From the NCBI GenBank assembly GCA_964494345.1, contig CAZBSI010000002.1, forward strand, positions 113,830-177,829: 64,000 nt of DNA, read 5' to 3'. The first letter of the stretch is position 1. Every line of letters begins with the position of its first letter. Under the pieces are notes generated by a model. It did not search any database. It had not been told where the DNA came from and was given only the letters and a program-made list of their open reading frames with translations. Origin of the DNA: an uncultured bacterium. Lineage in GTDB: Bacteria; Armatimonadota; UBA5829. Below, one piece after another: positions 19,478-52,371 of this stretch. The position numbers and the translations under genes are program-made.

Positions 19478-19563
19478 GCCGGAGTGGCGGAATGGCAGAC
19501 GCAGTGGTCTCAAAAACCACCGAGGGCAACCTCATGTCGGTTCGACTCCGACCTCCGGCACCA
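19478..19563 (+). tRNA. tRNA-Leu (anticodon CAA), class II with long variable arm, CCA encoded
   Basis: Acceptor stem GCCGGAG/CTCCGGC, D-stem GCG/CGC, anticodon stem GTGGT/ACCAC with loop CTCAAAA, variable arm GAGGG-CAA-CCTC, T-arm GTCGG-TTCGACT-CCGAC, discriminator A, then CCA. Confidence 0.9.
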
Positions 19564-37921: not shown

Positions 37922-38878
37922 TTATTCTCCCGCAGCCTCGTCCTTATGTTCAGAGCGCTTGCCCGATTCCATAAACGCCAACACGTCGGAGAGCTTGAAC
38001 CTGCGCTGATTGCCGGCCGTTCGATAATGTTTCAGCACGCCGCGGTTGGTGTATCTTCGCACCGTGGTCGGGCAGACGTTCAATACGCGCGCGGCCTCTT
38101 CGAGGCTGATAATAGGGTCCAAAAGCCGCTGTATGAGCTGCTCGCGAGTCTCCTTAAAAGTTTTATATGAGTTCTGTGCAATCTCCTCACCAGCCGTTCC
38201 GAACAGGGTCTGCAGGTGATGCGGCATGCGATCCCAGTTGGCCTGCGTTACGTCAGGCACAACGGCCTTAGGCTTTAAGCCGATAGCCACCTCCGGCGAC
38301 GGAACCGGCCTTGGCGGGAGAGGAATCTCTACCGGAGGCCCCGGTTGCAATTTCTCGCGCCGGCTGACAGGCGGCTGCGGCGCCGGTTCCCTGGGCAGCG
38401 GCCGAGGTTGCCCTGTGCCCTCAGACAGCCCGAGACTGCCCTGATCCTCAGCCACCGGCATCTCCTCTACTTTCTCAACTATCTCCGTTTCCTCCGGATC
38501 GTCAAGAACGGACTGCCGGCCGGATCTGCTTAAAAACGAGAAGAAATCCTCAACTTGCGGCGTTTCCTCCTCGCCAAAGAGCTTGCCGGATGCCTGATCG
38601 GTTGAGTCAGCGGAAGACGATGTCTCAATAACGGGGGTCGGCTCTACCACTACCTCGTCAGAATCCACAGTGGCGACCACAGAGATGGGAGCTTCGGCAG
38701 CAGGGGCCTCGATTTGCACCTGGTGAATCTGCTGATCCGGCACGCTCTTCTCGGCGCTTGGCTTGAGATCGTTGTTGGGTTTTGGTTGAGTTGGAGCCTT
38801 TCTGGCCTTTACTTCTTGTTCTTGCTTGTCAACCTGCTTGAACCATTCTCCGAGTTTGTTGTCGTAGTTAGCCATCAA
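37922..38878 (-). CDS. DNA-binding protein with C-terminal excisionase/MerR-type HTH and long acidic Pro/Glu-rich disordered N-terminal region
   Basis: C-terminal LSLEEAARVLNVCPTTVRRYTNRGVLKHYRTAGNQRRFKLSDVLAF matches the HTH_17/excisionase-family helix-turn-helix. The first ~250 aa are low-complexity, P/E/Q/V-rich. Confidence 0.5.
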   Translation of the reverse strand: MMANYDNKLGEWFKQVDKQEQEVKARKAPTQPKPNNDLKPSAEKSVPDQQIHQVQIEAPAAEAPISVVATVDSDEVVVEPTPVIETSSSADSTDQASGKLFGEEETPQVEDFFSFLSRSGRQSVLDDPEETEIVEKVEEMPVAEDQGSLGLSEGTGQPRPLPREPAPQPPVSRREKLQPGPPVEIPLPPRPVPSPEVAIGLKPKAVVPDVTQANWDRMPHHLQTLFGTAGEEIAQNSYKTFKETREQLIQRLLDPIISLEEAARVLNVCPTTVRRYTNRGVLKHYRTAGNQRRFKLSDVLAFMESGKRSEHKDEAAGE

Positions 38879-42275: not shown

Positions 42276-43232
42276 ATGCCGGAGAAGACTCATTACGACC
42301 TGATCGTCCTCGGCGCGGGGCCGGCGGGGATGACCGCGGTCGTCTATGCCGCTCGAAAGCAGATCGATACGCTGATCATCTCAGACGACATCGGCGGCCA
42401 GACTTTGTGGAGCGCGGGGATAGAGAACTATCTTGGGTTTATGTTTATAACCGGGCCGGAATTGGTTCGGAAATTCGAGGAACACGTGCGTGCGTTCGAT
42501 GTTCCGCAGGAATATACCCGCGTCTCCAGCCTGCTGCGCGACGGGGACAAATTCAGCATACATACTGATGATGGTCGAGTTTTTACTGCGAGAGCGGTTA
42601 TCGTGGCTACGGGAAAGTCCCCTAAGATGCTCGGCGTGCCTGGGGAAAAGGAGCTTATCGGACGTGGGGTGGCGTATTGTGCGACCTGCGATGCCCCTTT
42701 ATTTGCAGGACATAACGTGGCTGTGGTGGGCGGCGGCAATTCCGGCCTGGATGCGGTAATCCAGTTGATGGGGTTGTGCCCTAAGGTCTATCTTATCGAA
42801 CACTCGCCTGCGCTTCGCGCCGACGCGGTGGTGGTAAAAAAAGCCGAAGCCGCAGATAATGTTGAGGTTCTCACGAACACATCGGTGAAAGAAATAATCG
42901 GCGCCGATTTCGTTGAGGGTATTAAAATCGACAGCGCCAATGGAGGCAACCCGCGACAACTCGATGTTAAGGGAATCTTTATCGAGATCGGCCTGAGTCC
43001 GAACACCAGCTTCTTAGACCAACTCGTGCGTTTGAACCCGCAAGGGGAGGTTCCGGTGGACTGCGCCGCTCGCACGGGGGTTCCGGGCTTGTATGCCGCC
43101 GGAGATGTGACCGATGTGCCCGAAAAGCAGATCATTATCGCGGCGGGTGACGGGGCAAAGGCCGCGCTGGGCGCGTATGCTTATCTGCTAAGGCTGCCAA
43201 TTGTCGATGATTGGGGACCGATGATCTCGTGA
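42276..43232 (+). CDS. trxB: thioredoxin-disulfide reductase
   Basis: FAD motif DLIVLGAGPAG, redox-active CATC, and NADPH motif VAVVGGGNSG. Confidence 0.9.
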   Translation: MPEKTHYDLIVLGAGPAGMTAVVYAARKQIDTLIISDDIGGQTLWSAGIENYLGFMFITGPELVRKFEEHVRAFDVPQEYTRVSSLLRDGDKFSIHTDDGRVFTARAVIVATGKSPKMLGVPGEKELIGRGVAYCATCDAPLFAGHNVAVVGGGNSGLDAVIQLMGLCPKVYLIEHSPALRADAVVVKKAEAADNVEVLTNTSVKEIIGADFVEGIKIDSANGGNPRQLDVKGIFIEIGLSPNTSFLDQLVRLNPQGEVPVDCAARTGVPGLYAAGDVTDVPEKQIIIAAGDGAKAALGAYAYLLRLPIVDDWGPMIS

Positions 43233-44380
43233 TTGGGGCTGTGCGGTCGGCGTATGTGCATATTCCGTTTTGCGTGTCGAAGTGCTGGTATTGTGACTTC
43301 AATTCATATTGCGGCTTGGAATCGCTATATGAGGGCTATGTTCGCGCGCTGATTGCAGAGATCAACAGCACTGCACCACACTCGGAGAATAATCTTCAGA
43401 CCATCTATTTTGGAGGCGGAACCCCGACCGTGCTGCCCGAAGACGATCTGATCCGGGTTTTGGATACGCTGTGTGAGAGGTTCGGCATCTCGGAGACCGC
43501 CGAGGTAACCATCGAAGCGAATCCAGGCACGGTGAGTCTTCGCGGGCTGAAAATGTTGCATAAGGCCGGGTTCAACAGAATCAGCCTCGGAATACAGTCC
43601 CTCGACGACGACTTCCTGCGCGGCATCGGGCGAACGCATACGCGCCTGCAGGCGATTGCAGCGTATAATTACGCTCGCGAGGCCGGGTTCGATAACGCCG
43701 GGGTGGATCTAATATTCGCCCTGCCTGGACAGAGCCTGACGCACTTCGCCGATACTCTCGAAAGCGTTATGGAACTAAGCCCAAGACCCGGACACGTCTC
43801 CCTTTATGAACTCTCCATAGAGGAGGGGACCCGTTTTGCGGAGTTGTGTGCGCAGGGGGGGCTTCCGGTGGTCGACGAAGAGCTGCGATTGCAGATGTAT
43901 GAGTGCGCCATAGATCGGCTTACACAAGCTGGTTATGAGCACTACGAGGTCTCCAATTTCGCGCTGCCGGGGTTCCGGTCGCAGCATAATCTGACCTATT
44001 GGCGGAACGAGCCGTATTATGGCTTTGGGGCCGGGGCCAGCAGCTATGTAGATGGAACGAGAAGCCGACGCGTCCCGGACCCGCGAAAGTATATTGAGGC
44101 AGTTGACAGCGGTTCCGAGTTGATGGAGTTTTCTGAGACCCTCAGCCCCATTGCCCGCCTCGGAGAGACGATAATTCAGGGGCTGAGGATGCTCGAAGGC
44201 GTCGATCTCAATTATATCGAAACCGAAACAGGCCTTAATCCGCGACTGATATATCAAACCGAGATCGAATCTCTGTTGCGCAAGGGTCTAATCGATGTTG
44301 CGGCTGACCATATGCGCGTAACTCACGCCGGGCTGCTGTTGCTCAACGACGTATCTCAGGAGTTCGCTGTAATATCCTGA
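43211..44380 (+). CDS. hemW: radical SAM family heme chaperone HemW (coproporphyrinogen III oxidase-like)
   Basis: CxxxCxYC radical SAM motif (CVSKCWYCDF), with a HemN_C-like C-terminus. The start may instead be GTG 43229. Confidence 0.85.
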   Translation: MGTDDLVIGAVRSAYVHIPFCVSKCWYCDFNSYCGLESLYEGYVRALIAEINSTAPHSENNLQTIYFGGGTPTVLPEDDLIRVLDTLCERFGISETAEVTIEANPGTVSLRGLKMLHKAGFNRISLGIQSLDDDFLRGIGRTHTRLQAIAAYNYAREAGFDNAGVDLIFALPGQSLTHFADTLESVMELSPRPGHVSLYELSIEEGTRFAELCAQGGLPVVDEELRLQMYECAIDRLTQAGYEHYEVSNFALPGFRSQHNLTYWRNEPYYGFGAGASSYVDGTRSRRVPDPRKYIEAVDSGSELMEFSETLSPIARLGETIIQGLRMLEGVDLNYIETETGLNPRLIYQTEIESLLRKGLIDVAADHMRVTHAGLLLLNDVSQEFAVIS

Positions 44381-44383
44381 GCG

Positions 44384-45115
44384 CTACGGTTTTTTGTGCT
44401 GCAGGAACCAATCTCCGAGGTTTTCGTTGCGATAGGCGTTATCCCAGCTATTGTGACCGACTCCCGGATAGATCGTCAATTTGCAGTTGCCTCCTGCGGC
44501 GTTGATCCATCTTTCCATCTCGCGACTGCGCTCGACATCGACTGCTTTATCGTGGTCGCCATGAAAAGTCCAAATCGGCAGTTTGACAACTTTTTTCGCT
44601 ATCTCTTCATCAGCCCAACCACACACGGGCGCGATGGCGGCGAAAAGATCCGGATGGCGGGCAGCTATGGCCCATGTGCCGTGACCGCCCTGAGAAAGGC
44701 CCGTGAGATACAGTCGGGAGAGGTCTATGTTGTAATCCTTTTTCGCCTGCTCGAAGACAGCCATCGCCATCGGCTCCTCGTCCTCCCACAGCGACTCCGA
44801 GTCTTGCTTCTGCGGGAACAGGACTATAAACGGCCATTTGTCGGAATCGAGCATAATCGCGCCGCCAAAGTGATAGCACTGCCTCAGCCCGTCGGAGCCG
44901 CATTCTCCCTTGCCGTTAAGGAACAGAATAGTCGGCATCGGCTTTGCCGGATCGTAGGAGAGAGGCGCGTAGACCGCGTAGTTCATCTCCTTGTCATCGA
45001 CTTTTATGGTCTTCATGATGAACCCACGCTGAACATCCTTTTGTTTTGCCGATACCGGGCATGCGTTCATCAGGATCAGCATAATCGCCACGACGAAAAT
45101 TATCGATTGAGTCAT
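44384..45115 (-). CDS. secreted alpha/beta-hydrolase esterase
   Basis: Signal peptide. Nucleophile elbow GLSQGG. A downstream Asp and the His in GVGHNSWD give a catalytic triad arrangement like PHB depolymerase or carboxylesterase. Confidence 0.65.
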   Translation of the reverse strand: MTQSIIFVVAIMLILMNACPVSAKQKDVQRGFIMKTIKVDDKEMNYAVYAPLSYDPAKPMPTILFLNGKGECGSDGLRQCYHFGGAIMLDSDKWPFIVLFPQKQDSESLWEDEEPMAMAVFEQAKKDYNIDLSRLYLTGLSQGGHGTWAIAARHPDLFAAIAPVCGWADEEIAKKVVKLPIWTFHGDHDKAVDVERSREMERWINAAGGNCKLTIYPGVGHNSWDNAYRNENLGDWFLQHKKP

Positions 45116-45198
45116 AGCACAAAACCCCCTCGTTTGGCTGTCTAATTATATCACGCGTGCGTTGTCGTGAGCTTGAATCTTAGACCATTCAGATCAAT

Positions 45199-45717
45199 CT
45201 AATTATACACGCTATCAACCAGCCACCTGCGCCCATTCTTGACCAGGTTGATCGGTATCTGCCGCTCCCGTTGATCAGGGTATTTCAAGGTCACAATCAC
45301 AACGGCGTGCCCTGCCGAGGGATACGCGGCGTCGCCTACGGTATATGTCGCCTCGTTGTTGTGTATCTCATCGAAGAAATAATCCGACAGCGCGTGAGTG
45401 TCGGAGACCCCCGGCTGCATACGCGAATTAAAGGCGTCGGTATGATAACCGGCAGCTTTGCCGCATGACCTCTGAGCCATCGCGTCGAACCACTCCGTGG
45501 CGATAACATTCGGCGGTATTGTCCTGAATATGTGGCACAGCAGCAAAATGACCAGCAATAACCCCACGCCCGCCGCAGCATATTTCACTCTGGCAGACGG
45601 CTTCCACGCCTCCTTTGTCTCGACGTGAAAATGCCCCCCGGCAGCCGTTCGAGCGCCGCACACGATACATACTTTTTGTTCTGAACGCAGATCAGCGCCG
45701 CATTTGACGCATTTCAA
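45199..45717 (-). CDS. hypothetical membrane-anchored protein with N-terminal zinc ribbon
   Basis: MKCVKCGADL...VCIVCGA, a CxxC-N12-CxxC motif, followed by one TM helix. Confidence 0.4.
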   Translation of the reverse strand: MKCVKCGADLRSEQKVCIVCGARTAAGGHFHVETKEAWKPSARVKYAAAGVGLLLVILLLCHIFRTIPPNVIATEWFDAMAQRSCGKAAGYHTDAFNSRMQPGVSDTHALSDYFFDEIHNNEATYTVGDAAYPSAGHAVVIVTLKYPDQRERQIPINLVKNGRRWLVDSVYN

Positions 45718-45738
45718 GTATCATCACCTCTTAAACGA

Positions 45739-46908
45739 TTACAACCGTTCGATTACACTCGCCCCGTCTTCAGCAGTGCAGACGTAAAGCGATGGGGAGA
45801 GTTGCGTTTTCTTATGATATTCTACGGCAACAACCTCTAGGAATTGTTCCACGTAATCGTCTTTTACCAGACTCACAGTACATCCGCCGAACCCCGCGCC
45901 TGCCATTCTGCCCGCCAGCGACCCCGGCGCGGCGCGAGTCACTTCCACCATCGCCTCCAACTCCGGGCAACTGACCTCATAAAGGTCTCTCGCGGAATCG
46001 TGGGATGCGTTCATCAGCCTGCCGAACTCGACAAAATCCCCGTCCTGCAAAACCTGCCTGCTGCGTAGCACGCGCTCGTTTTCTCCGACCACATGCGCCA
46101 CCCGCTTGCCGACCACCTCAGGCAGATCGGATTTATGAGCCTCATACATCTCCGAACTCACATCCCGCAGAGCCTTAACTTCAGGATACCACCCCGCAAA
46201 CAGCCTGGCCCCTTCCTCGCACTGGCTTCTGCGCAGGTCGTATTCGCTGTCCACCAACCCCCGCCGCTTCATGGTGTCACAGACCACTATCTTAACTCGC
46301 GACGTATCCAGCGGCACATACTCATATTCCAAAGTGCGACAGTCCAAAAACAGCGCAGAATCTTTCTTGCCGAGCCTGGAGATAAACTGATCCATTATCC
46401 CCGTATTGACCCCGACGAACTTGTTTTCCGCCTTTTGACCTATCAGAGCCAAATCCGGGCCGCTCATCTCAAATCCATTGAGAGTCTGCATCAAAAACCC
46501 GGTCGCCATCTCAATCGCCGCCGAGCTGGAAAGCCCGGAACCTATCGGCACGTTGCCGTGAATGACCATATCCGCGCCGCACAGCGCCACGCCCGACTCC
46601 TGCAAAAAGTGGATCACCCCGCGGACATAGTTGCTCCACGTGTTAACGTTGTCGAACTCGATGGAATCCAGATCAAACTCGACCAATTGCTCGAAGTTGG
46701 CGGAATAGACCGCGATCTTTCTATCCTCGCGCAGCCTGCCCCCCGCCAACACGTCGACATTCACAGCCACCGGCAGTACGAAGCCATCGTTGTAGTCCGT
46801 ATGGCTTCCCATTAAGTCAACGCGCCCAGGCCCCTTTACTATTGCTTGCATCGACGATTCGAATATTTTCGAAAAATCCTCTTTAATACGCCTTATGCGA
46901 TCAGGCAT
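45739..46908 (-). CDS. galK: galactokinase (GHMP kinase)
   Basis: GPGRVDLMGSHTDYNDGFVLPVAV galactokinase signature. GHMP motif PIGSGLSSSAA. C-terminal GAGFGGCTVSLV. Start at ATG 46908. Confidence 0.9.
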   Translation of the reverse strand: MPDRIRRIKEDFSKIFESSMQAIVKGPGRVDLMGSHTDYNDGFVLPVAVNVDVLAGGRLREDRKIAVYSANFEQLVEFDLDSIEFDNVNTWSNYVRGVIHFLQESGVALCGADMVIHGNVPIGSGLSSSAAIEMATGFLMQTLNGFEMSGPDLALIGQKAENKFVGVNTGIMDQFISRLGKKDSALFLDCRTLEYEYVPLDTSRVKIVVCDTMKRRGLVDSEYDLRRSQCEEGARLFAGWYPEVKALRDVSSEMYEAHKSDLPEVVGKRVAHVVGENERVLRSRQVLQDGDFVEFGRLMNASHDSARDLYEVSCPELEAMVEVTRAAPGSLAGRMAGAGFGGCTVSLVKDDYVEQFLEVVAVEYHKKTQLSPSLYVCTAEDGASVIERL

Positions 46909-48406
46909 TATCCTCTGCTTTCCCCTGCGCCGATTTGAGCGACTCCCGTATTCGCTGAGGCACCCTTGCCAGCGCCTGTGTCCATTCTTTATTTGCTTTC
47001 TCGACACGACGGATCAGGATATGCCCATACGCGCTGTAGGCCCACTTTCTCGCCCTGCGCTCGATCTCCCAGCGCGCCCTCTTCCACTTGCCCTTCAGCA
47101 AATTCAAATTGAGCTTCGCCAGAAACTTAAACGAATCCGCCCCGATCAGCAGCCGTATGCACTCACGTATGCTGTAGAAGCACTTCATAGCTCTGAACGC
47201 CTCTCGCTGGAGTTCATACGGGCTTATCTCACGCGGCTCGTATACTACGTGGTGGCCGTCATACAACTGCCAATCCCTGGTGAGCAGCCGATCCTGTCGT
47301 TCTAACTCATGATAGTAGACAGTACCGGGCAGGGGTGTCAAGGTCATAAACTGTACGGTATCAATTTGATGCTTGATCGCAAATTGTACGGTCTTGCGGA
47401 TGCTCTGGGTGGTGTCGTTTTCAGCCCCCAAAACGAACATACCGTGGACTATTATCCCGTGCTCATGCAGCACGCGCACGGCCTCAGCCATCTGCTCGAC
47501 GGTCTCTTTTTTGTTGTATTCCTTCAGCGTTTCCTCATCAGCAGACTCAAAGCCGACATACACCACCCAGCAATTCGACTGCTGAAACAGCCTCATAAGC
47601 TCCCTGTCGTGCACAGCATCGGCCCTGATTTGCGCCGACCAGGGCTTTGTCAGCCCCTTCGACATCATAAGTTCCAACAGCGCCTTGGTGCGTTTCGGAT
47701 TCGCTACAAAGTTGTCGTCGTAGAAAAAAGTCAATTTCTGTTCGCGGGTGAGCATCTCATCGGCGACACTTTCGATACTGCGATACCGGCACGCCTTGCC
47801 GAACATCCCCGTCACGCTGCAGAAACTACAATCAAACGGGCAGCCTCGCGATGTCTGAACAGGCGAAATGCTGATCCTCTCCGAACCCTTAATCAACGAA
47901 AGATCGGGAAACGGCAGTGAGTCCAGATCCTTCACCCGCCCCCGGTCTTCGTTGTGGATAACCTCGTCGCCTGCTCTGAACGAAAGTCCTTTTATGTCTT
48001 TCAGCCCATCCCCACCCGATTCCAGCGCGTCAACGAGCTCGACTATGGTTTGTTCGCCCTCTCCACGCACGCAATACTCCCCGTGCTCCAGGGCCTCGTT
48101 CGATGAAAAAGTAACGTGAGAGCCACCGAACACAATGGGAATACCCGCCTGCCGGACACGATCAGCGATCCGGTAGGCTTCCGGCGCGGTGGAGGTGGTA
48201 GTGGAGATGCCGACCAAATCGCTCGACAACACTTCGTCGTAGTCGACAGGATGAAAATCCTGGCAGTAGATGGAGACTTCTATCCCCTTGTTTCTCAGAA
48301 TCGCACCGAGAATCGGCAGCCCCAGCCTGGGCAATGGAAAAAGGCTGTAGACGTGAAAGCCCGGTGGGCGAGGTTCGATAAGAGTGACCTTTCGTATGCG
48401 TCTCAA
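46901..48406 (-). CDS. B12-binding domain-containing radical SAM protein (class B-like)
   Basis: N-terminal cobalamin-binding-like Rossmann region (VGISTTTSTAPEAYRIADRVRQAGIPIVFGG). Radical SAM CPFDCSFC. Its stop overlaps the galK start by 8 nt. Confidence 0.8.
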   Translation of the reverse strand: MRRIRKVTLIEPRPPGFHVYSLFPLPRLGLPILGAILRNKGIEVSIYCQDFHPVDYDEVLSSDLVGISTTTSTAPEAYRIADRVRQAGIPIVFGGSHVTFSSNEALEHGEYCVRGEGEQTIVELVDALESGGDGLKDIKGLSFRAGDEVIHNEDRGRVKDLDSLPFPDLSLIKGSERISISPVQTSRGCPFDCSFCSVTGMFGKACRYRSIESVADEMLTREQKLTFFYDDNFVANPKRTKALLELMMSKGLTKPWSAQIRADAVHDRELMRLFQQSNCWVVYVGFESADEETLKEYNKKETVEQMAEAVRVLHEHGIIVHGMFVLGAENDTTQSIRKTVQFAIKHQIDTVQFMTLTPLPGTVYYHELERQDRLLTRDWQLYDGHHVVYEPREISPYELQREAFRAMKCFYSIRECIRLLIGADSFKFLAKLNLNLLKGKWKRARWEIERRARKWAYSAYGHILIRRVEKANKEWTQALARVPQRIRESLKSAQGKAEDNA

Positions 48407-48465
48407 AGCGCTCCCCCTCTTTTCCTCGCCCCGTACGGTTGGTTATGAGTATAGGAGCCGGCCGC

Positions 48466-49503
48466 CTATAATTGGTCGCTGGTTATAAACGTGTCCTGTA
48501 TTGTGCTCGGCGCCGCTTCCCGAAGTTCCGCGGCTTTTTCCTCGGCTATGGTATCGTTTATATACGACCCCGCTCCGCTTTCACAGCCCGCCAGATATTT
48601 CAGCTTCGTCTTAGTCCGCAGGGGCGGATGGAACTCAATATGGTAATGATAATACCCATAATCCCGCCCGTCAGTCGGCGCCTGGTGCATAATCATCATA
48701 TAGGGTTGGGATATTCCCCACAGATTGTCATATTTCAGCAGCACGGCCTTAAGAATCGCGGCAAGGTCGGCCCGTTCTGTATCATCAAAATCGAGCATAG
48801 TCTGCCGGTGATTGCGAGAAAATACATACACCTCGTAAGGATATCGAGCAAAGAACGGGATCATCGCCACAAACGAGTCGTTTTCGACGACGATCCTGCG
48901 CCTGTCCTTCAGCTCTTCGGCGATAATATCGCAGAACAAGCATCTGCCGGTGCGATTCTGATGTTTCAGCGCGGAGTCAAGCTCCCGTTGAATCTTAGGA
49001 GGAATGAACGGAAACGCGTATATCTGCCCGTGCGGGTGAGTCAGAGTCACCCCGATATCCTTGCCTTTATTCTCGAAAATCAGCACGTAGTCTATAAAAT
49101 CACGACCGCTGAGGTCCTTAAATCGATCAGTCCACACATCGATCAGGTTTTGCATCTCCTGCAAAGAGGCGTCGGTGAGTGTGCCGCCGTGGCGGGATGT
49201 ATAGCAGACCACTTCACAAATCCCATGAGCCGGTCGAACTTTATAAAGTTCGCTGCCTTCCACTGCAGGCTCGGGCGCAGGGTGTTGCAAAGAGGGAAAC
49301 TTATTCTCAAAAGTGACTATTTCATAGTCCGGCTGCGGGATCTCCGTAGGAAACGCGCCGGGCTTGGTCGGGCACAGCGGGCAATAGTCGTCCGGGGGAA
49401 GAAAAGTTCTGTCCTGCCGGTGTGTTGCAGTTATAACCCATTCCTCTAAAATGGGATGCCATCTCAATTCAGACACTAATCCCGCCCTCCGTCGCATTCG
49501 CAC
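48466..49503 (-). CDS. galT: galactose-1-phosphate uridylyltransferase (HIT family, GalT type 1)
   Basis: Zn site CPLC, active site HPHGQIYA (HxHxQ), and overall GalT collinearity. Confidence 0.85.
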   Translation of the reverse strand: MRMRRRAGLVSELRWHPILEEWVITATHRQDRTFLPPDDYCPLCPTKPGAFPTEIPQPDYEIVTFENKFPSLQHPAPEPAVEGSELYKVRPAHGICEVVCYTSRHGGTLTDASLQEMQNLIDVWTDRFKDLSGRDFIDYVLIFENKGKDIGVTLTHPHGQIYAFPFIPPKIQRELDSALKHQNRTGRCLFCDIIAEELKDRRRIVVENDSFVAMIPFFARYPYEVYVFSRNHRQTMLDFDDTERADLAAILKAVLLKYDNLWGISQPYMMIMHQAPTDGRDYGYYHYHIEFHPPLRTKTKLKYLAGCESGAGSYINDTIAEEKAAELREAAPSTIQDTFITSDQL

Positions 49504-49601
49504 TCGCCTGATGGGTCCTCGACCTCTGCGTCATCAAACGTAAAGTATATGAGATACCTGCCGTCCTCCAGCCTGATCTCCTCTTTTTTCATCGCCATAA
49601 A

Positions 49602-50369
49602 TTATCTACCTCGCAGAATCTGTTCGATCGCCTGAAGCTGCTGTGGGGTGTTTACACCCATAAGCTCAGCAGGGTCACACTCCACAGTCGAAACTCTCCG
49701 ATTTTGTTCGATGGCAACACGAACCATATCCGTCAGGTTATATTCACCAGCCTCGTTGACGGCCATTTGCTCGATATTGCCAAACAGCCAGCGTGAATCG
49801 CACGCGTAAATGCCGCCGTTGACCTCGCGGATCGCTTTCTGAGCCTCATCAGCACACTTCTCTTCGACTACCCCGGCCACACAACCTGCCCCATCTCGCA
49901 TGATTCTTCCATAGCCAAAGGGGTCATCGAGAGTTGCGGAGGCCAGGGTGATGGCAGCTTCGGAACGAGTATGCTCAAGGCGCATTCTATTCACAGTGTC
50001 CGAAGTGAACAAGGGGCTGTCACCGCACATAATTATCAGCGTGCCATCGAAGTCTCTAAAAGCATTCTTAGCACACGCCACCGCATGCCCGGAGCCTTTT
50101 TGCTCAGTTTGCTCCACGTATCCGACTTCGGAACCGACCTCGTCGATCACTGCGGATGCGCCGAAGCCGACTATGAGGGTAATATCATCGACACCCGCGC
50201 CGGTCAGCGCATCGATGACATAGCCCACCAGCGGCTTGCCAAGCGCCTTGCGAAGCACCTTCGGAAACGGATCCCCAGATTCTGCGGCAAATCGCGACCC
50301 TCTGCCGGCTGCCAGCACCAATCCTGCAGATTTATTGTCGGGGCAGAACATTGCGATACCACTGCCCAT
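49602..50369 (-). CDS. sugar-phosphate nucleotidyltransferase (NTP_transferase domain, GlmU N-terminal-like)
   Basis: LVLAAGRGSRF..PKVL motif and the GSGHAV region. Confidence 0.65.
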   Translation of the reverse strand: MGSGIAMFCPDNKSAGLVLAAGRGSRFAAESGDPFPKVLRKALGKPLVGYVIDALTGAGVDDITLIVGFGASAVIDEVGSEVGYVEQTEQKGSGHAVACAKNAFRDFDGTLIIMCGDSPLFTSDTVNRMRLEHTRSEAAITLASATLDDPFGYGRIMRDGAGCVAGVVEEKCADEAQKAIREVNGGIYACDSRWLFGNIEQMAVNEAGEYNLTDMVRVAIEQNRRVSTVECDPAELMGVNTPQQLQAIEQILRGR

Positions 50370-51483
50370 CGGGTTTCAATTCACGAATATCCACCGCACC
50401 GCCGGTTTCCGACACCGAGACATAGTTGCCGCTCTTCAGCGGATAAATGAGGCAATCTCGTAAGGCGTCACGCCAGGCTTTGTCTTTATCCGTGTTGTGT
50501 TTGGAGAGATCGAAGATGGGTTTAGACTTACCCGTAGCCAAATCGAACTGGAACGCGCCATTATAGTTTGTGTAGTCGATTGTCTTGGGCACTTTCGGCC
50601 ATATACTCAGGTCGATGCCGTTCGGCTGTTCGACGAGCCTGGCTGCGACCTGGTCGTAGGTCAAGACTTGCAGTTTCTGGTTGACGCTGCAGATGATTAG
50701 GACCTGTGTCGGTGACGGCCAGATTCCCTCGATTCGACCCGGCACATCGTTAAGCTCGAACATTTTAACCATCGAGCCTGTCTCGGCATCGGCCAAATAA
50801 TAGGCGCGACCGCCGCTCATCTCAGGATCAGCAACCGAGAAGACAAACGTCCCGCCACCATAGTCGATTCCCGTATCCTTAAACAGGTTGTCCTTGTCGC
50901 CGCCGGGGATAGGTATTGCCTGACCGATCATCGAACACTCTTTGCCATTTACGTTGTATGCCGCCACAGAGGCAGGTTCTTCGTCGGTGAGGGCGACAAA
51001 CTTTGAAGCAGTGTTTGGCCAGCAGACTATTCTCTCGATATCAGAGCCATAAACCGGCTCGCCCGTTACTTTGGCCTCCACCGCATCCACCATAATAAAC
51101 CCGGCCCCCTGCAGCGGGTCGGTGATGCTGGTAAAGCACGCCCGCAGTGTGCGGTTGTCGGCCCAGCTTATATAATTGACCTCAATCCCATCCGGCAGAG
51201 CGCAGGATTTGCCGGAATGATCGTTAAAATTGACTATTCTGATGGCCGAGTGCGCAGTGTTCGAAGAGTGTTGCCTGCTGTTCCATGCTCCTGCCCAAAG
51301 GGCGCCGGCGGGGTTTACGGCCTGCGCACCCAACTCGCCATAACTTCGCACGCTTTTCCAATCGGCGAAAGAACCGATTGGGCCAGGCACGATCTTGGGC
51401 GGGGGGTTGCTAATTCGCCACACAAGCGCGACCGCAACCAGCACAAATATCACGTATAACGGCAATCTGTTGTTCTTGTTCAT
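50332..51483 (-). CDS. hypothetical membrane-anchored protein
   Basis: N-terminal TM helix (LPLYVIFVLVAVALVW), then a ~350 aa probably extracytoplasmic beta-rich domain. No recognisable motif. Confidence 0.4.
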   Translation of the reverse strand: MNKNNRLPLYVIFVLVAVALVWRISNPPPKIVPGPIGSFADWKSVRSYGELGAQAVNPAGALWAGAWNSRQHSSNTAHSAIRIVNFNDHSGKSCALPDGIEVNYISWADNRTLRACFTSITDPLQGAGFIMVDAVEAKVTGEPVYGSDIERIVCWPNTASKFVALTDEEPASVAAYNVNGKECSMIGQAIPIPGGDKDNLFKDTGIDYGGGTFVFSVADPEMSGGRAYYLADAETGSMVKMFELNDVPGRIEGIWPSPTQVLIICSVNQKLQVLTYDQVAARLVEQPNGIDLSIWPKVPKTIDYTNYNGAFQFDLATGKSKPIFDLSKHNTDKDKAWRDALRDCLIYPLKSGNYVSVSETGGAVDIRELKPDGQWYRNVLPRQ

Positions 51484-51489
51484 ATTGGC

Positions 51490-52209
51490 TTAAAGGCCTC
51501 TCACTCGATTAATATACCTCGCCAGCAATTTTTCGTTATGCTCGTCGCTGCCGTCGAGATTTGCGCTGATAAACACCGGCGGCGTCTCTCCTGCTTTGAT
51601 CAGGTTCTCTATAGTCTGAGCCACCATCGACTCCACGATAAACATACCCGCCAACCCCGAGGTCGGGCAGGCGCGTCCCGGTAGTCCCTCTATTTCCAGA
51701 ATCGCATCTCCCGCAACGCCGCAGTTGTCTATGACGATATCCGCGATCTCAAACAACCGCTTTCCGCTCGAATGGCGCGAACCAACAGACTTCGAGTGCG
51801 CAAGCGACGTGATAGCGATAGTCTTGATCCCACGCTCCCTGCACCAAAGCGCCGTCTCGACCGGCATAGCGTTGCGACCGGAGTTGGAGACAATAACGAC
51901 CACGCATCCGGGGGTAATATTATAATTCTTCAGAACGGTTTCCGCATACCCTTCGACGCGTTCGGCCCTGCCGAACGTTTTGTCCTCGATCACGTCGACC
52001 GCAGCAAGTCCCCCAGCCCGGTAGTAGCCTTCCATAGCTATCGCAATCGAGTGTCCGCTGCCCAAAAAATACACGATCCGGTCGTGTTTAACACACTCCG
52101 CCAGCGCCTGTGCAGCCTTCGATATGCCCTCCTGCTGGGTGTCCGCTATGCGAGCCAGCAGATCATTCACGGTCTGATAATATCTTTCCGAACTTGTAGC
52201 CATTATCAA
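51490..52209 (-). CDS. SIS (sugar isomerase) domain protein
   Basis: RIVYFLGSGHSIAIA and VVVIVSNSGRN segments are typical of the SIS phosphosugar-binding fold. Confidence 0.7.
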   Translation of the reverse strand: MIMATSSERYYQTVNDLLARIADTQQEGISKAAQALAECVKHDRIVYFLGSGHSIAIAMEGYYRAGGLAAVDVIEDKTFGRAERVEGYAETVLKNYNITPGCVVVIVSNSGRNAMPVETALWCRERGIKTIAITSLAHSKSVGSRHSSGKRLFEIADIVIDNCGVAGDAILEIEGLPGRACPTSGLAGMFIVESMVAQTIENLIKAGETPPVFISANLDGSDEHNEKLLARYINRVRGL

Positions 52210-52371
52210 CCCACCTCCACCGTGATTATCCCACCATTCTCCTCCGAGGTCAATGCGACCTGTGGGAGGAAATGCCCATCAAATCGGAGAACACATACGG
52301 TACCTCACATTATAATCCGCTTGTTTTATACCAAAGCTGCCAAAAAAGGCAGCCAAATCAGGAGGCCTGTT

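What the first reader, a model, noticed from the sequence alone, without database searches (positions are those of the whole stretch)
44384..52209. Nine-gene minus-strand sugar-nucleotide operon with a B12-binding radical SAM enzyme inserted between galT and galK
The order is SIS domain protein, hypothetical membrane protein, NTP-transferase, (41-codon small ORF), GalT, B12-radical SAM, GalK, Zn-ribbon membrane protein, secreted esterase. Gaps are short or the genes overlap; the radical SAM stop overlaps the galK start.

A cobalamin-dependent radical SAM enzyme of class B type (typically C-methyltransferases acting on sugars or antibiotics) sits inside a Leloir-like kinase/uridylyltransferase pair. 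This suggests synthesis of a modified, possibly C-methylated, nucleotide sugar rather than simple galactose catabolism.
Basis: inference. Interest (0 to 1): 0.5.

Follow-up and report, generated by a model that had tools for sequence, protein, structure and literature searches.

The report
Radical SAM gene inside galactose operon
A B12-type radical SAM gene of unknown function really does sit between the two core galactose-pathway genes, and stays there across one bacterial phylum (Armatimonadota), but near-identical versions in many other phyla never lie near sugar genes, so a "methylated sugar" pathway is possible but not supported.

Summary
Nine minus-strand genes (44384-52209) have the stated identities and short gaps or overlaps. 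The radical SAM stop overlaps the galK start by 8 nt.

Eight of the genes (SIS to Zn-ribbon protein) recur as a block in related Armatimonadota contigs. The esterase recurs only in contigs of the same organism.

Among 19 distinct related loci, galK follows the radical SAM gene in 13 and galT precedes it in 13. A radical SAM-galK-Zn-ribbon triad survives loss of galT and a GH106 insertion.

- GalK and GalT score above curated Leloir equivalog cut-offs and keep their catalytic motifs.
- No dehydratase, aminotransferase or glycosyltransferase is present.
- The radical SAM protein belongs to a widespread uncharacterised BchE-like family. In 91 loci from at least 15 other phyla, none has a gal-operon gene nearby.
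- 76 of 110 clade-conserved residues are the same in those phyla, so the chemistry is probably the same and gal-independent.

C-methylation cannot be inferred from sequence.

Best reading (0.45): a Leloir/UDP-hexose salvage operon carrying a co-expressed radical SAM enzyme whose substrate is unknown. A real sugar-modifying role remains possible (about 0.25).

The parts
52225..52253 (-). Promoter-like site (TTGACC, 17 nt, TG-n-GATAAT) about 20 nt upstream of the SIS start; candidate operon promoter
   Evidence: 10 of 12 matches with an extended -10 TG. It is a consensus match only: the number of such sites in the region is not above the shuffled expectation.
51490..52203 (-). SIS_2 / UPF0309 phosphosugar-binding protein (237 aa)
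   Evidence: Pfam SIS_2 E 6e-35. NF002805 279.5 bits, above the cut-off of 135. PDB relatives are 3cvj and 9eol (SCO4393, NagS), E 5e-36. The start follows the gene calls in L114-L116.
50332..51483 (-). 383-aa protein with an N-terminal membrane anchor and no recognisable domain; conserved member of the block
   Evidence: No Pfam or NCBIfam hit even at E 10. Homologues at 31-60% identity occupy the same position in L001, L002, L008, L090, L091 and L112.
49602..50351 (-). Sugar-1-phosphate nucleotidylyltransferase, like the GlmU N-terminal domain, without the acetyltransferase domain (249 aa)
   Evidence: PF00483 and PF12804. GlmU models match only their positions 3-239 of about 450, at 213.8 bits against a cut-off of 450; AglF scores 99.6 bits. 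An NTP_transferase-GalK fusion exists elsewhere (P0191).
49476..49598 (-). Conserved 40-codon small ORF, translationally coupled to galT
   Evidence: Translation. tblastn hits at 52-82% identity in the same position in related loci. Genes of 39-63 aa are called there in L001, L002, L008, L006 and L111. The stop overlaps the galT start. Only four small-ORF relatives were found in the protein database.
48466..49476 (-). GalT, class I galactose-1-phosphate uridylyltransferase (336 aa)
   Evidence: TIGR00209 213.6 bits against a cut-off of 102.1. PF01087 and PF02744. PDB 6k5z E 1.5e-61, with LTHPHGQIY and CPLCP aligned.
46901..48406 (-). Radical SAM protein with an N-terminal B12-binding-type Rossmann domain (501 aa); uncharacterised BchE-like family
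   Evidence: PF02310 and PF04055. C189-x3-C193-x2-C196 is invariant. The best NCBIfam model is BchE at 175 bits against a cut-off of 481, and no model passes. AF2 model pLDDT 89. Foldseek finds TsrM, AprD4, MgmA, CysS, OxsB and TokK at 16-22% identity.
45739..46908 (-). GalK, galactokinase (389 aa); its start overlaps the radical SAM stop by 8 nt
   Evidence: TIGR00131 403.5 against 226.65 and NF003705 417.2 against 385. PDB 1pie E 6.5e-80. The signature is the variant GRVDLMGSHTDY.
45199..45717 (-). 172-aa protein: N-terminal Zn-ribbon, one TM helix, small extracytoplasmic domain; third member of the conserved radical SAM-galK-Zn-ribbon triad
   Evidence: Zn_Ribbon_1 E 6.9e-5, below the Pfam cut-off. 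Homologues at 34-66% identity lie directly after galK in L001, L002, L003, L008, L090, L092, L111, L112 and L113, and directly after the radical SAM gene in L093.
44384..45115 (-). Secreted alpha/beta-hydrolase (esterase / PHB-depolymerase-like); same strand, but not part of the conserved block
   Evidence: Pfam hits Peptidase_S9, DLH, Abhydrolase_2 and Esterase. Homologues follow the block only in same-organism contigs L114-L116.

Best explanation
The region is an Armatimonadota operon for salvaging galactose into UDP-hexoses.

Proposed pathway steps:
- GalK makes galactose-1-phosphate.
- GalT exchanges it with UDP-glucose.
- A GlmU-N-terminal-type nucleotidylyltransferase supplies or regenerates the UDP-sugar.
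- A UPF0309 SIS protein handles a sugar phosphate.
- Two membrane-anchored proteins of unknown role accompany them.

Between galT and galK, translationally coupled to galK, lies a member of a pan-bacterial, uncharacterised BchE-like branch of the radical SAM enzymes that carry a B12-binding domain. The same residues are conserved in orthologues from many other phyla that never sit beside gal genes. So the enzyme most likely performs the same reaction everywhere, independent of galactose.

The likely chemistry is reductive cleavage of SAM at the CX3CX2C cluster, then hydrogen abstraction, then probably a cobalamin-assisted methyl transfer or rearrangement, on a substrate shared by those bacteria. 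On this reading it is in the operon for co-expression, not to make a C-methylated nucleotide sugar.

Shown: the gene identities, the operon anatomy, the synteny pattern and the cross-phylum residue conservation.
Inferred: co-transcription, cobalamin use, the type of chemistry, and independence from the gal pathway.
For: - GalK and GalT exceed curated equivalog cut-offs. Their best solved relatives are genuine Leloir enzymes with motifs kept.
- GalK fusions elsewhere are with GalT, UDPGP and NTP_transferase. None of the eight over-long proteins among the 150 nearest representatives carries a radical SAM domain.
- No dehydratase, aminotransferase or glycosyltransferase is in the block.
- The radical SAM family is widespread: 593 relatives confirmed in GTDB species genomes.
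- None of 91 loci outside the Armatimonadota clade, 55 of them with at least 3 kb on both sides, contains a homologue of any operon protein.
- The only recurrent neighbour outside the clade is a MerR regulator, in 13 of 53 upstream genes.
- Gal-linked copies form a single clade in the family tree.
- 76 of the 110 columns that are at least 95% conserved in that clade carry the same residue in at least 90% of 84 sequences from other phyla. The 14 clade-specific columns are mostly conservative changes.
- Within the clade the radical SAM gene also occurs alone (L005, L062) or with only galT (L072, L078, L086).
Against: - The radical SAM-galK junction is never broken in 13 loci spanning 48-100% radical SAM identity, although the flanks rearrange: galT lost in L003 and L112, and a 1033-aa GH106-like gene inserted in L111.
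- The junction is an overlap or a gap of 26 nt or less.
- Cultured Armatimonadetes genomes are reported to be unusually poor in operons (PMC4959169), so a conserved block stands out.
- The GalK of the triad clade has lost the signature glutamate.
- This explanation names no substrate for the radical SAM enzyme.
- Galactose metabolites are universal, so a sugar substrate is compatible with the wide distribution.
Confidence: 0.45

Rival explanations
1. The radical SAM enzyme modifies a sugar of the pathway (galactose, Gal-1-P or UDP-hexose), for example by C-methylation, epimerisation or dehydration. The operon therefore makes a modified nucleotide sugar, with GalK, GalT and the NTP-transferase activating it.
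For: - Phylum-wide conservation of galT-radical SAM-galK, with translational coupling to galK.
- The triad persists through rearrangements of the flanks.
- The GalK sugar-binding signature is altered in the triad clade.
- Sugar-acting relatives exist in the superfamily. AprD4 gives the best TM-score (0.69 / 0.76). HpnJ scores 149 bits. GenK, Fom3 and OxsB are listed in PMC12931638.
- No GalE is in the cluster.
Against: - GalK and GalT are canonical by curated cut-offs and motifs.
- The GalK signature variant is a covarying charge swap also present in 11 of 140 other GalK representatives, so it is not specific to this context.
- The galT-radical SAM-galK loci L006 and L094 keep the canonical signature.
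- Orthologues in 91 loci of other phyla have no gal, nucleotide-sugar or glycosyltransferase neighbours, yet keep the same conserved residues.
- No radical SAM-GalK fusion was seen among the eight over-long proteins scanned.
- Methylation cannot be read from the sequence (PMC12931638).
Confidence: 0.25
2. The radical SAM enzyme acts on a cell-envelope molecule (a glycolipid, a peptidoglycan-linked glycan or a lipid) that in Armatimonadota is built from the UDP-hexose made by the operon. The two membrane-anchored proteins (383 aa and the Zn-ribbon protein) position or sense it at the membrane.
For: - The Zn-ribbon membrane protein stays with the radical SAM gene even when galK is absent (L093).
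- It is part of the triad in at least 10 loci.
- The 383-aa anchored protein is conserved in the block.
- In two other lineages the radical SAM gene is followed by peptidoglycan hydrolase genes: NlpC/P60-like in 6 Thermoleophilia loci, and SLT+LysM in 4 Desulfobacterota loci.
- The C-terminal 80 residues are helical and strongly basic, as in membrane-peripheral lipid-modifying radical SAM enzymes (GrsA/B description in PMC13459092).
Against: - The envelope-gene neighbours are each confined to one lineage and are few.
- There are no glycosyltransferase, flippase or lipid-synthesis genes in the block.
- The membrane proteins have no recognisable domains.
- Nothing ties the Zn-ribbon protein to the enzyme other than adjacency.
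Confidence: 0.15
3. The enzyme is a protein-modifying radical SAM methylase, like its closest solved sequence relative MgmA. In Armatimonadota its target is encoded next to it (for example GalK). In other phyla the target lies elsewhere.
For: - The best PDB sequence hit is 9ccb (E 2.9e-18), which is MgmA, the MCR glutamine C-methyltransferase (PMC11796369).
- The scattered, context-free distribution in other phyla is typical of enzymes acting on macromolecules.
Against: - Only 20% identity to MgmA.
- TIGR04014 scores 112 bits against a cut-off of 360.
- No candidate target residue was identified. The variable signature position of GalK is not conserved, which argues against it being a modification site.
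Confidence: 0.05

Closest known systems
Leloir galactose operons (galK-galT, with galE/galM), and kinase plus pyrophosphorylase sugar-salvage pairs such as AmgK-MurU
   Same: - GalK and GalT pass curated equivalog models and keep their catalytic motifs.
- A sugar-1-P nucleotidylyltransferase accompanies them.
- GalK-GalT, GalK-UDPGP and NTP_transferase-GalK fusions exist elsewhere.
   Different: - No galE, galM, transporter or regulator lies within about 8 kb of the block.
- A radical SAM gene lies between galT and galK.
- A conserved 40-codon ORF is coupled to galT.
- Two membrane proteins and a UPF0309 SIS protein belong to the block.
- GalK carries the charge-swap signature variant.
B12-binding-domain (class B) radical SAM enzymes: MgmA, TsrM, TokK and CysS (methylases); BchE, HpnJ and OxsB (non-methylating)
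   Same: - N-terminal Rossmann-type B12-binding domain, plus a CX3CX2C radical SAM barrel and a helical C-terminal domain.
- Foldseek probability 1.0 to TsrM, MgmA, CysS, OxsB and TokK.
- The best HMM is BchE.
   Different: - 16-22% identity to every solved member.
- Every curated NCBIfam model is far below its cut-off: BchE 175 of 481, HpnJ 149 of 578, HpnR 125 of 650, MgmA 112 of 360.
- The substrate is unknown.
- The family is spread over at least 15 phyla with no conserved pathway context.
Radical SAM enzymes that act on sugars: AprD4 (aminoglycoside 1,2-diol dehydratase), GenK/GenD1 and Fom3 (C-methylases), HpnJ (ring contraction of a hopanoid-linked amino sugar)
   Same: The overall architecture is the same. 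AprD4 gives the highest TM-score of the solved structures.
   Different: - Those enzymes sit in secondary-metabolite or hopanoid clusters with many tailoring genes. This one sits in a primary-metabolism operon.
- AprD4 does not bind cobalamin (PMC12931638).
- NF033070 (AprD4) scores 58.9 bits against a cut-off of 500.
NagS (SCO4393), GlcNAc-6-phosphate dehydratase of Streptomycetaceae, the only characterised UPF0309 SIS protein
   Same: The SIS protein of the block belongs to the same family (NF002805 passes; 9eol E 5e-36).
   Different: The NagS paper reports true orthologues only in Streptomycetaceae (at least 58.7% identity). Homologues at 26-36% identity were inactive on GlcNAc-6P (PMC12680351). 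The function here is therefore unknown.

Membership tests
Galactokinase (GHMP kinase; TIGR00131 / NF003705) | Whole-protein score above the curated equivalog cut-off | tested here: met
   TIGR00131 403.5 against 226.65 and NF003705 417.2 against 385. Three other galactokinase models (PRK05101, PRK03817, PRK00555) fall below their cut-offs.
Galactokinase (GHMP kinase; TIGR00131 / NF003705) | Galactokinase signature G-R-x-N-[LIV]-I-G-[DE]-H-x-D-Y (PROSITE pattern quoted from memory) | tested here: not met
   The window has GRVDLMGSHTDY. Relatives in the triad clade have S, C, A, I, N or H at the [DE] position and D or E at the N position. The same covarying swap occurs in 11 of 140 other GalK representatives, so it is a recurrent GalK variant rather than proof of a new specificity.
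Galactokinase (GHMP kinase; TIGR00131 / NF003705) | Sugar-contact and catalytic residues of L. lactis GalK (Arg36, Asp45, Asp183, Tyr233; identities from memory of Thoden & Holden 2003) and the GHMP phosphate-binding loop | tested here: met
   In the alignment to 1pie, R, D (HTDY), D (GIMDQF) and Y (DSEYD) are aligned and identical, and PIGSGLSSSAA is present. Glu42 is replaced by Ser.
Galactokinase (GHMP kinase; TIGR00131 / NF003705) | Phosphorylates D-galactose at C1 | not testable with these tools
   Needs an enzyme assay with galactose and C6- or C-methyl-modified analogues.
Class I galactose-1-phosphate uridylyltransferase (TIGR00209) | Curated cut-off, both Pfam half-domains, the His-Pro-His nucleophile motif and the CxxC zinc site | tested here: met
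   213.6 bits against 102.1. PF01087 and PF02744. LTHPHGQIY and YCPLCP are aligned to 6k5z.
Cobalamin-dependent (class B) radical SAM enzymes | CX3CX2C cluster motif in a radical SAM barrel, preceded by a B12-binding Rossmann domain | tested here: met
   PF04055 73.9 bits (cut-off 29.5) and PF02310 60.5 bits (cut-off 32.1). C189, C193 and C196 are invariant in 46 sequences. The model has pLDDT 89 and matches TsrM, MgmA, TokK, CysS and OxsB.
Cobalamin-dependent (class B) radical SAM enzymes | Actually binds cobalamin and uses it in catalysis | not testable with these tools
   AprD4 and ArsL have related Rossmann-like domains but bind no cobalamin, and there is no sequence rule for telling them apart (PMC12931638). 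Needs cofactor analysis of the purified protein.
Class B radical SAM C-methyltransferases | Transfers a methyl group to an unactivated carbon (two SAM consumed; SAH plus 5'-dA formed) | not testable with these tools
   According to PMC12931638, methylases and non-methylating members (BchE, HpnJ, ladderane enzymes) cannot be separated by sequence or structure.
BchE (TIGR02026), HpnJ (TIGR03471), HpnR (TIGR04367), PhpK family (TIGR04479), MgmA (TIGR04014) | Score above the curated cut-off of the family model | tested here: not met
   175 of 481, 149 of 578, 125 of 650, 128 of 600 and 112 of 360 bits respectively. The protein is a member of none.
NagS, GlcNAc-6P dehydratase (within UPF0309) | Orthology to Streptomycetaceae NagS (at least 58.7% identity, nagS-dmdR1 synteny) | tested here: not met
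   The relation to SCO4393 is only family-level (E 5e-36, 127.7 bits). The gene context differs. The paper found distant homologues inactive (PMC12680351).
GlmU (bifunctional) | N-terminal uridylyltransferase domain plus C-terminal left-handed beta-helix acetyltransferase domain | tested here: not met
   Only profile positions 3-239 of about 450 match, at 213.8 bits against a cut-off of 450, in a protein of 249 aa. It is a stand-alone nucleotidylyltransferase.

The most novel reading that the evidence does not exclude
In Armatimonadota a cobalamin-type radical SAM enzyme is an obligate partner of galactokinase. It performs radical chemistry (C-methylation, epimerisation or deoxygenation) on galactose or a galactose phosphate or nucleotide. 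This would be a previously unknown radical branch of the Leloir pathway, and it would reveal the substrate class of a large uncharacterised radical SAM family present in many phyla.
Probability: 0.2. Interest if true: 0.75.

Novelty: new variant of a known kind. Interest (0 to 1): 0.4.

Why it matters
Most of the more than 100 sequence groups of B12-type radical SAM enzymes have no known substrate (PMC12931638). This family is widespread: hundreds of relatives in reference genomes of at least 15 phyla.

The Armatimonadota operon is the only conserved metabolic context found for it here, which makes it the best available lead for choosing substrates to test. If the link is functional, it would add radical chemistry to one of the most thoroughly studied sugar pathways. 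If it is not, the case is a clear warning that phylum-deep gene adjacency and translational coupling can arise without a shared pathway.

Tried and rejected
- **Literature.** No paper in the library holds 'radical SAM' + 'galactokinase' + 'cobalamin'. Two searches for the GalK active-site residues found nothing usable, so the residue roles are quoted from memory.
- **Bacterial membrane-spanning-lipid idea (Mss, Tes, Gms, Gmm, Grs).** I read PMC13159169, PMC11214058 and PMC13459092. Mss is not described there as B12-binding, Tes uses auxiliary Fe-S clusters and Gms is a SPASM/Twitch enzyme. Gmm and the Grs enzymes are B12-type but described from archaea. I had no sequences to compare. The idea was dropped as unsupported, not disproved.
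- **Riboswitch or other RNA element.** Rfam finds only a tRNA at 19478-19560.
- **Conserved neighbours in other phyla.** ORF clustering within 7 kb either side and Pfam counts of adjacent same-strand genes gave only a MerR regulator and lineage-restricted neighbours. There was no pathway signal.
- **Rosetta-stone fusions.** GalK fuses with GalT, UDPGP and NTP_transferase, but not with a radical SAM domain in the proteins scanned.
- **GalK signature as evidence of new specificity.** This was weakened by the covarying swap found in other GalK clusters, and by the canonical signature in L006 and L094.
- **sORF as a detached N-terminal piece of an actinobacterial-type GalT (lead from memory).** The word-indexed search found only four small ORFs and no fused protein. 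Inconclusive.
- **C-terminal extensions of Bacillota and Desulfobaccales orthologues.** Only a weak STAS_2 hit (E 0.024).
- **afdb50 fold search.** The library was not available.
- **Promoter and terminator scan.** Counts do not exceed the shuffled expectation. Only the site in front of the SIS gene is well placed.

Full report
**1. The observation.**

ORF listing and translation show nine consecutive minus-strand genes between 44384 and 52209.
- SIS_2 / UPF0309.
- A 383-aa anchored protein with no domain hit.
- A stand-alone GlmU-N-terminal-like nucleotidylyltransferase.
- A 40-codon ORF.
- GalT.
- A radical SAM protein with a B12-binding domain.
- GalK.
- A Zn-ribbon/TM protein.
- A secreted alpha/beta-hydrolase.

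Three contigs from public read sets carry the same organism's locus, with independently called genes of the same sizes. These fix the starts of SIS (52203), the NTP-transferase (50351) and GalT (GTG 49476).

The junctions are tight. The sORF stop overlaps the galT start (TAGTG). The radical SAM stop overlaps the galK start by 8 nt, with a GAGGA Shine-Dalgarno inside the radical SAM gene. The radical SAM gene has its own GGGGGAG before a TTG start, 59 nt after galT. A well-placed sigma-70-like site with an extended -10 lies about 20 nt upstream of the SIS start, although such sites are not enriched in the region. No riboswitch or other Rfam element is present.

Flanking genes are unrelated housekeeping genes: a HemW-like radical SAM protein, thioredoxin reductase, QueA, an NYN protein and an ABC transporter. 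There is no galE or galM.

**2. Who carries it.**

The radical SAM protein has hundreds of close relatives (55-92% identity). Every one that carries a source name is from Armatimonadota MAGs. A relative of the sORF at 88% identity is also named Armatimonadota.

**3. Synteny inside the clade.**

I collected 19 distinct related loci and mapped the window's proteins onto them by tblastn.
- The whole eight-gene block (SIS to Zn-ribbon protein) recurs in L001/L089, L002/L097, L008, L090 and L091, down to 57% radical SAM identity.
- galK follows the radical SAM gene directly in 13 of 19 loci.
- galT precedes it directly in 13 of 19 loci.
- The most persistent unit is radical SAM-galK-Zn-ribbon protein. 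It survives loss of galT (L003, where SurE is upstream, and L112, where the NTP-transferase is directly upstream) and insertion of a 1033-aa GH106-like gene between galT and the radical SAM gene (L111).
- In L093 the Zn-ribbon gene follows the radical SAM gene directly.
- Chthonomonadales loci (L072, L078, L086) keep galT-radical SAM without galK.
- L005 and L062 have the radical SAM gene alone.
- L006 and L094 (48-49% identity) have ROK-sORF-galT-radical SAM-galK.
- The esterase is not part of the conserved block.

Cultured Armatimonadetes genomes are described as unusually poor in operons (PMC4959169), which makes this block stand out.

**4. Outside the clade.**

A scan of one genome per GTDB species confirmed 593 relatives. 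The 80 loci fetched are 42-52% identical and come from:
- Thermoleophilia and other Actinomycetota
- Aminicenantes / Acidobacteriota
- Nitrospirota
- Desulfobacterota
- Zixibacteria
- Ignavibacteria
- Anaerolineae
- Bacillota
- Spirochaetota
- Planctomycetota
- Verrucomicrobiota
- Poribacteria
- Marinimicrobia
- others

In an NJ tree all gal-linked copies fall in one clade. Of 91 loci outside that clade, 55 with at least 3 kb on both sides, none contains a homologue of any of the other eight operon proteins.

ORF clustering and Pfam counts of adjacent same-strand genes show only one recurrent partner: a double-HTH MerR-type regulator overlapping the radical SAM start in 13 loci of one cross-phylum clade. 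There are also lineage-restricted neighbours: NlpC/P60-like genes in Thermoleophilia, SLT+LysM genes in Desulfobacterota, and a few MsrA, PPIase and SurE genes. There are no glycosyltransferases or nucleotide-sugar enzymes.

**5. Same enzyme everywhere?**

110 alignment columns are at least 95% conserved in the Armatimonadota clade. Of these, 76 carry the same residue in at least 90% of 84 sequences from other phyla. Only 14 are clade-specific, and most of those are conservative (V/I, Y/F, T/I). A C-terminal LQ...FYS...W..N pattern is shared too.

I see no sign of neofunctionalisation, so the chemistry and substrate class are probably the same in all phyla.

**6. What kind of radical SAM enzyme.**

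- The CX3CX2C motif (C189, C193, C196) and many Rossmann-domain residues are invariant.
- No curated NCBIfam model is passed. BchE is best (175 of 481 bits), then HpnJ, PhpK, HpnR, MJ_1487 and MgmA.
- The best solved sequence relative is 9ccb, which is MgmA, a protein glutamine C-methylase (PMC11796369).
- An AlphaFold model (pLDDT 89) matches TsrM, AprD4, MgmA, CysS, OxsB and TokK at 16-22% identity.
- A 2026 review states that methylating and non-methylating members cannot be told apart by sequence or structure, and that AprD4 and ArsL do not bind cobalamin (PMC12931638).

So 'class B, therefore C-methyltransferase' is not a safe inference, and even cobalamin use is unproven.

**7. The sugar enzymes.**

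- GalK passes TIGR00131 and NF003705, and GalT passes TIGR00209.
- GalK aligns over its full length with L. lactis and human galactokinases (E 6.5e-80 and about 2e-72).
- GalT aligns with solved GalTs, with the HPH and CxxC motifs in place.

One departure: the galactokinase signature reads GRVDLMGSHTDY. The glutamate that contacts the sugar in solved GalKs (residue role from memory) is Ser here, and S, C, A, I, N or H in relatives. The preceding Asn is always Asp or Glu.

This could have indicated a remodelled pocket. However, among the 140 nearest GalK cluster representatives that show the signature, 11 have the same swap, with perfect covariation. The L006 and L094 loci have the canonical signature despite the same galT-radical SAM-galK order. 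I read it as a compensated variant of ordinary galactokinase, not as evidence for a modified substrate.

GalK fusions in the database are with GalT, UDPGP and NTP_transferase, which supports the kinase-transferase-pyrophosphorylase logic of the block. None of the eight over-long proteins scanned carries a radical SAM domain.

The SIS protein belongs to UPF0309. Its only characterised member, NagS, is reported to be confined to Streptomycetaceae, and distant homologues were inactive (PMC12680351).

**8. Interpretation.**

Two lines of evidence pull in opposite directions.
- For a functional link: the unbroken, translationally coupled radical SAM-galK junction across the whole clade, in a phylum reported to have few operons.
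- Against a gal-specific role: canonical Leloir enzymes, the absence of any tailoring or glycosyl-transfer genes, the single-clade origin of the linkage, and an apparently isofunctional family scattered without sugar context through many phyla.

My ranking:
- Most likely (0.45): an ordinary galactose-to-UDP-hexose salvage operon that carries, for co-expression, a radical SAM enzyme whose gal-independent substrate is unknown.
- An envelope glycoconjugate or lipid target involving the two membrane proteins (0.15).
- A protein-modifying role (0.05).
- The remainder is unassigned.

**9. Novelty.**

I found no description of this arrangement, and the family has no curated model. It is a new variant of a known kind of operon, containing a new, uncharacterised member of a known enzyme superfamily. 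Its main value is as a substrate-discovery lead for a large orphan radical SAM family.

Noticed in passing
window 49476-49598 (-); also L001 6795-6914, L002 6612-6755, L008 6727-6897, L006 6777-6968, L111 954-1124: A 39-63 codon ORF (motif LEDGRYLIY) always lies directly upstream of galT, with a 1-8 nt stop/start overlap where the called genes abut (L001, L002, L008, L111, L078); in L006 a 51-nt gap separates it from galT. Only four small-ORF relatives are in the protein database, and no fused form was found. It may be a small GalT partner or a detached N-terminal segment.
   Followed up: partly
window 46800-46850 (-), GalK residues 27-38; P0150, P0164, P0166, P0171, P0174, P0207, P0210, P0229, P0236, P0245, P0266: Covarying 'charge swap' in the galactokinase signature: Asn becomes Asp or Glu, together with Glu becoming Asn, Gly, Ser or Ala. 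It occurs in 11 of 140 GalK cluster representatives and in all GalKs of the radical SAM-galK-Zn-ribbon clade. This looks like an undescribed GalK subclass.
   Followed up: partly
L021 9282-10004, L036, L039, L040, L043, L057, L058, L065, L070, L071, L079, L083, L084 (gene directly upstream of the radical SAM gene): A roughly 240-aa protein with two MerR-type HTH domains overlaps the start of the radical SAM orthologue. It occurs in one clade spanning Aminicenantes, Clostridia, Spirochaetota and Marinimicrobia. It is the only cross-phylum conserved partner of the family.
   Followed up: partly
L047, L050, L054, L061, L068, L085 (about 590 aa); L073, L074, L080, L081 (620 aa): Bacillota and Desulfobaccales orthologues carry extra C-terminal domains of 100-120 aa. 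One gives a weak STAS_2 hit (E 0.024); the others give nothing.
   Followed up: partly
L009, L017, L023, L025, L030, L033 (about 1 kb downstream); L020, L027, L028, L056 (directly downstream): Peptidoglycan hydrolase genes follow the radical SAM orthologue in two separate lineages: NlpC/P60-like in Thermoleophilia and SLT+LysM in Desulfobacterota.
   Followed up: no
P0167, P0228, P0212, P0191: Natural fusion proteins exist: GalK-GalT in both orders, GalK-UDPGP, and NTP_transferase-GalK.
   Followed up: no
L111 2462-5563; L112 5044-7503: A 1033-aa GH106-like glycosidase gene is inserted between galT and the radical SAM gene in one genome. In another genome galT is missing and the NTP-transferase directly precedes the radical SAM gene.
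   Followed up: no
window 43211-44380 (+): A second, unrelated radical SAM gene (HemN_C domain, HemW-like) converges on the esterase gene, 4 nt from its stop. It is preceded by thioredoxin reductase (42276-43232).
   Followed up: no
window 37922-38878 (-): A 318-aa protein with a C-terminal HTH_17/MerR-type domain lies about 8 kb from the radical SAM gene. No link was established to the MerR partners seen in other phyla.
   Followed up: no
window 19478-19560 (+): A single tRNA gene is the only Rfam match in the window.
   Followed up: no
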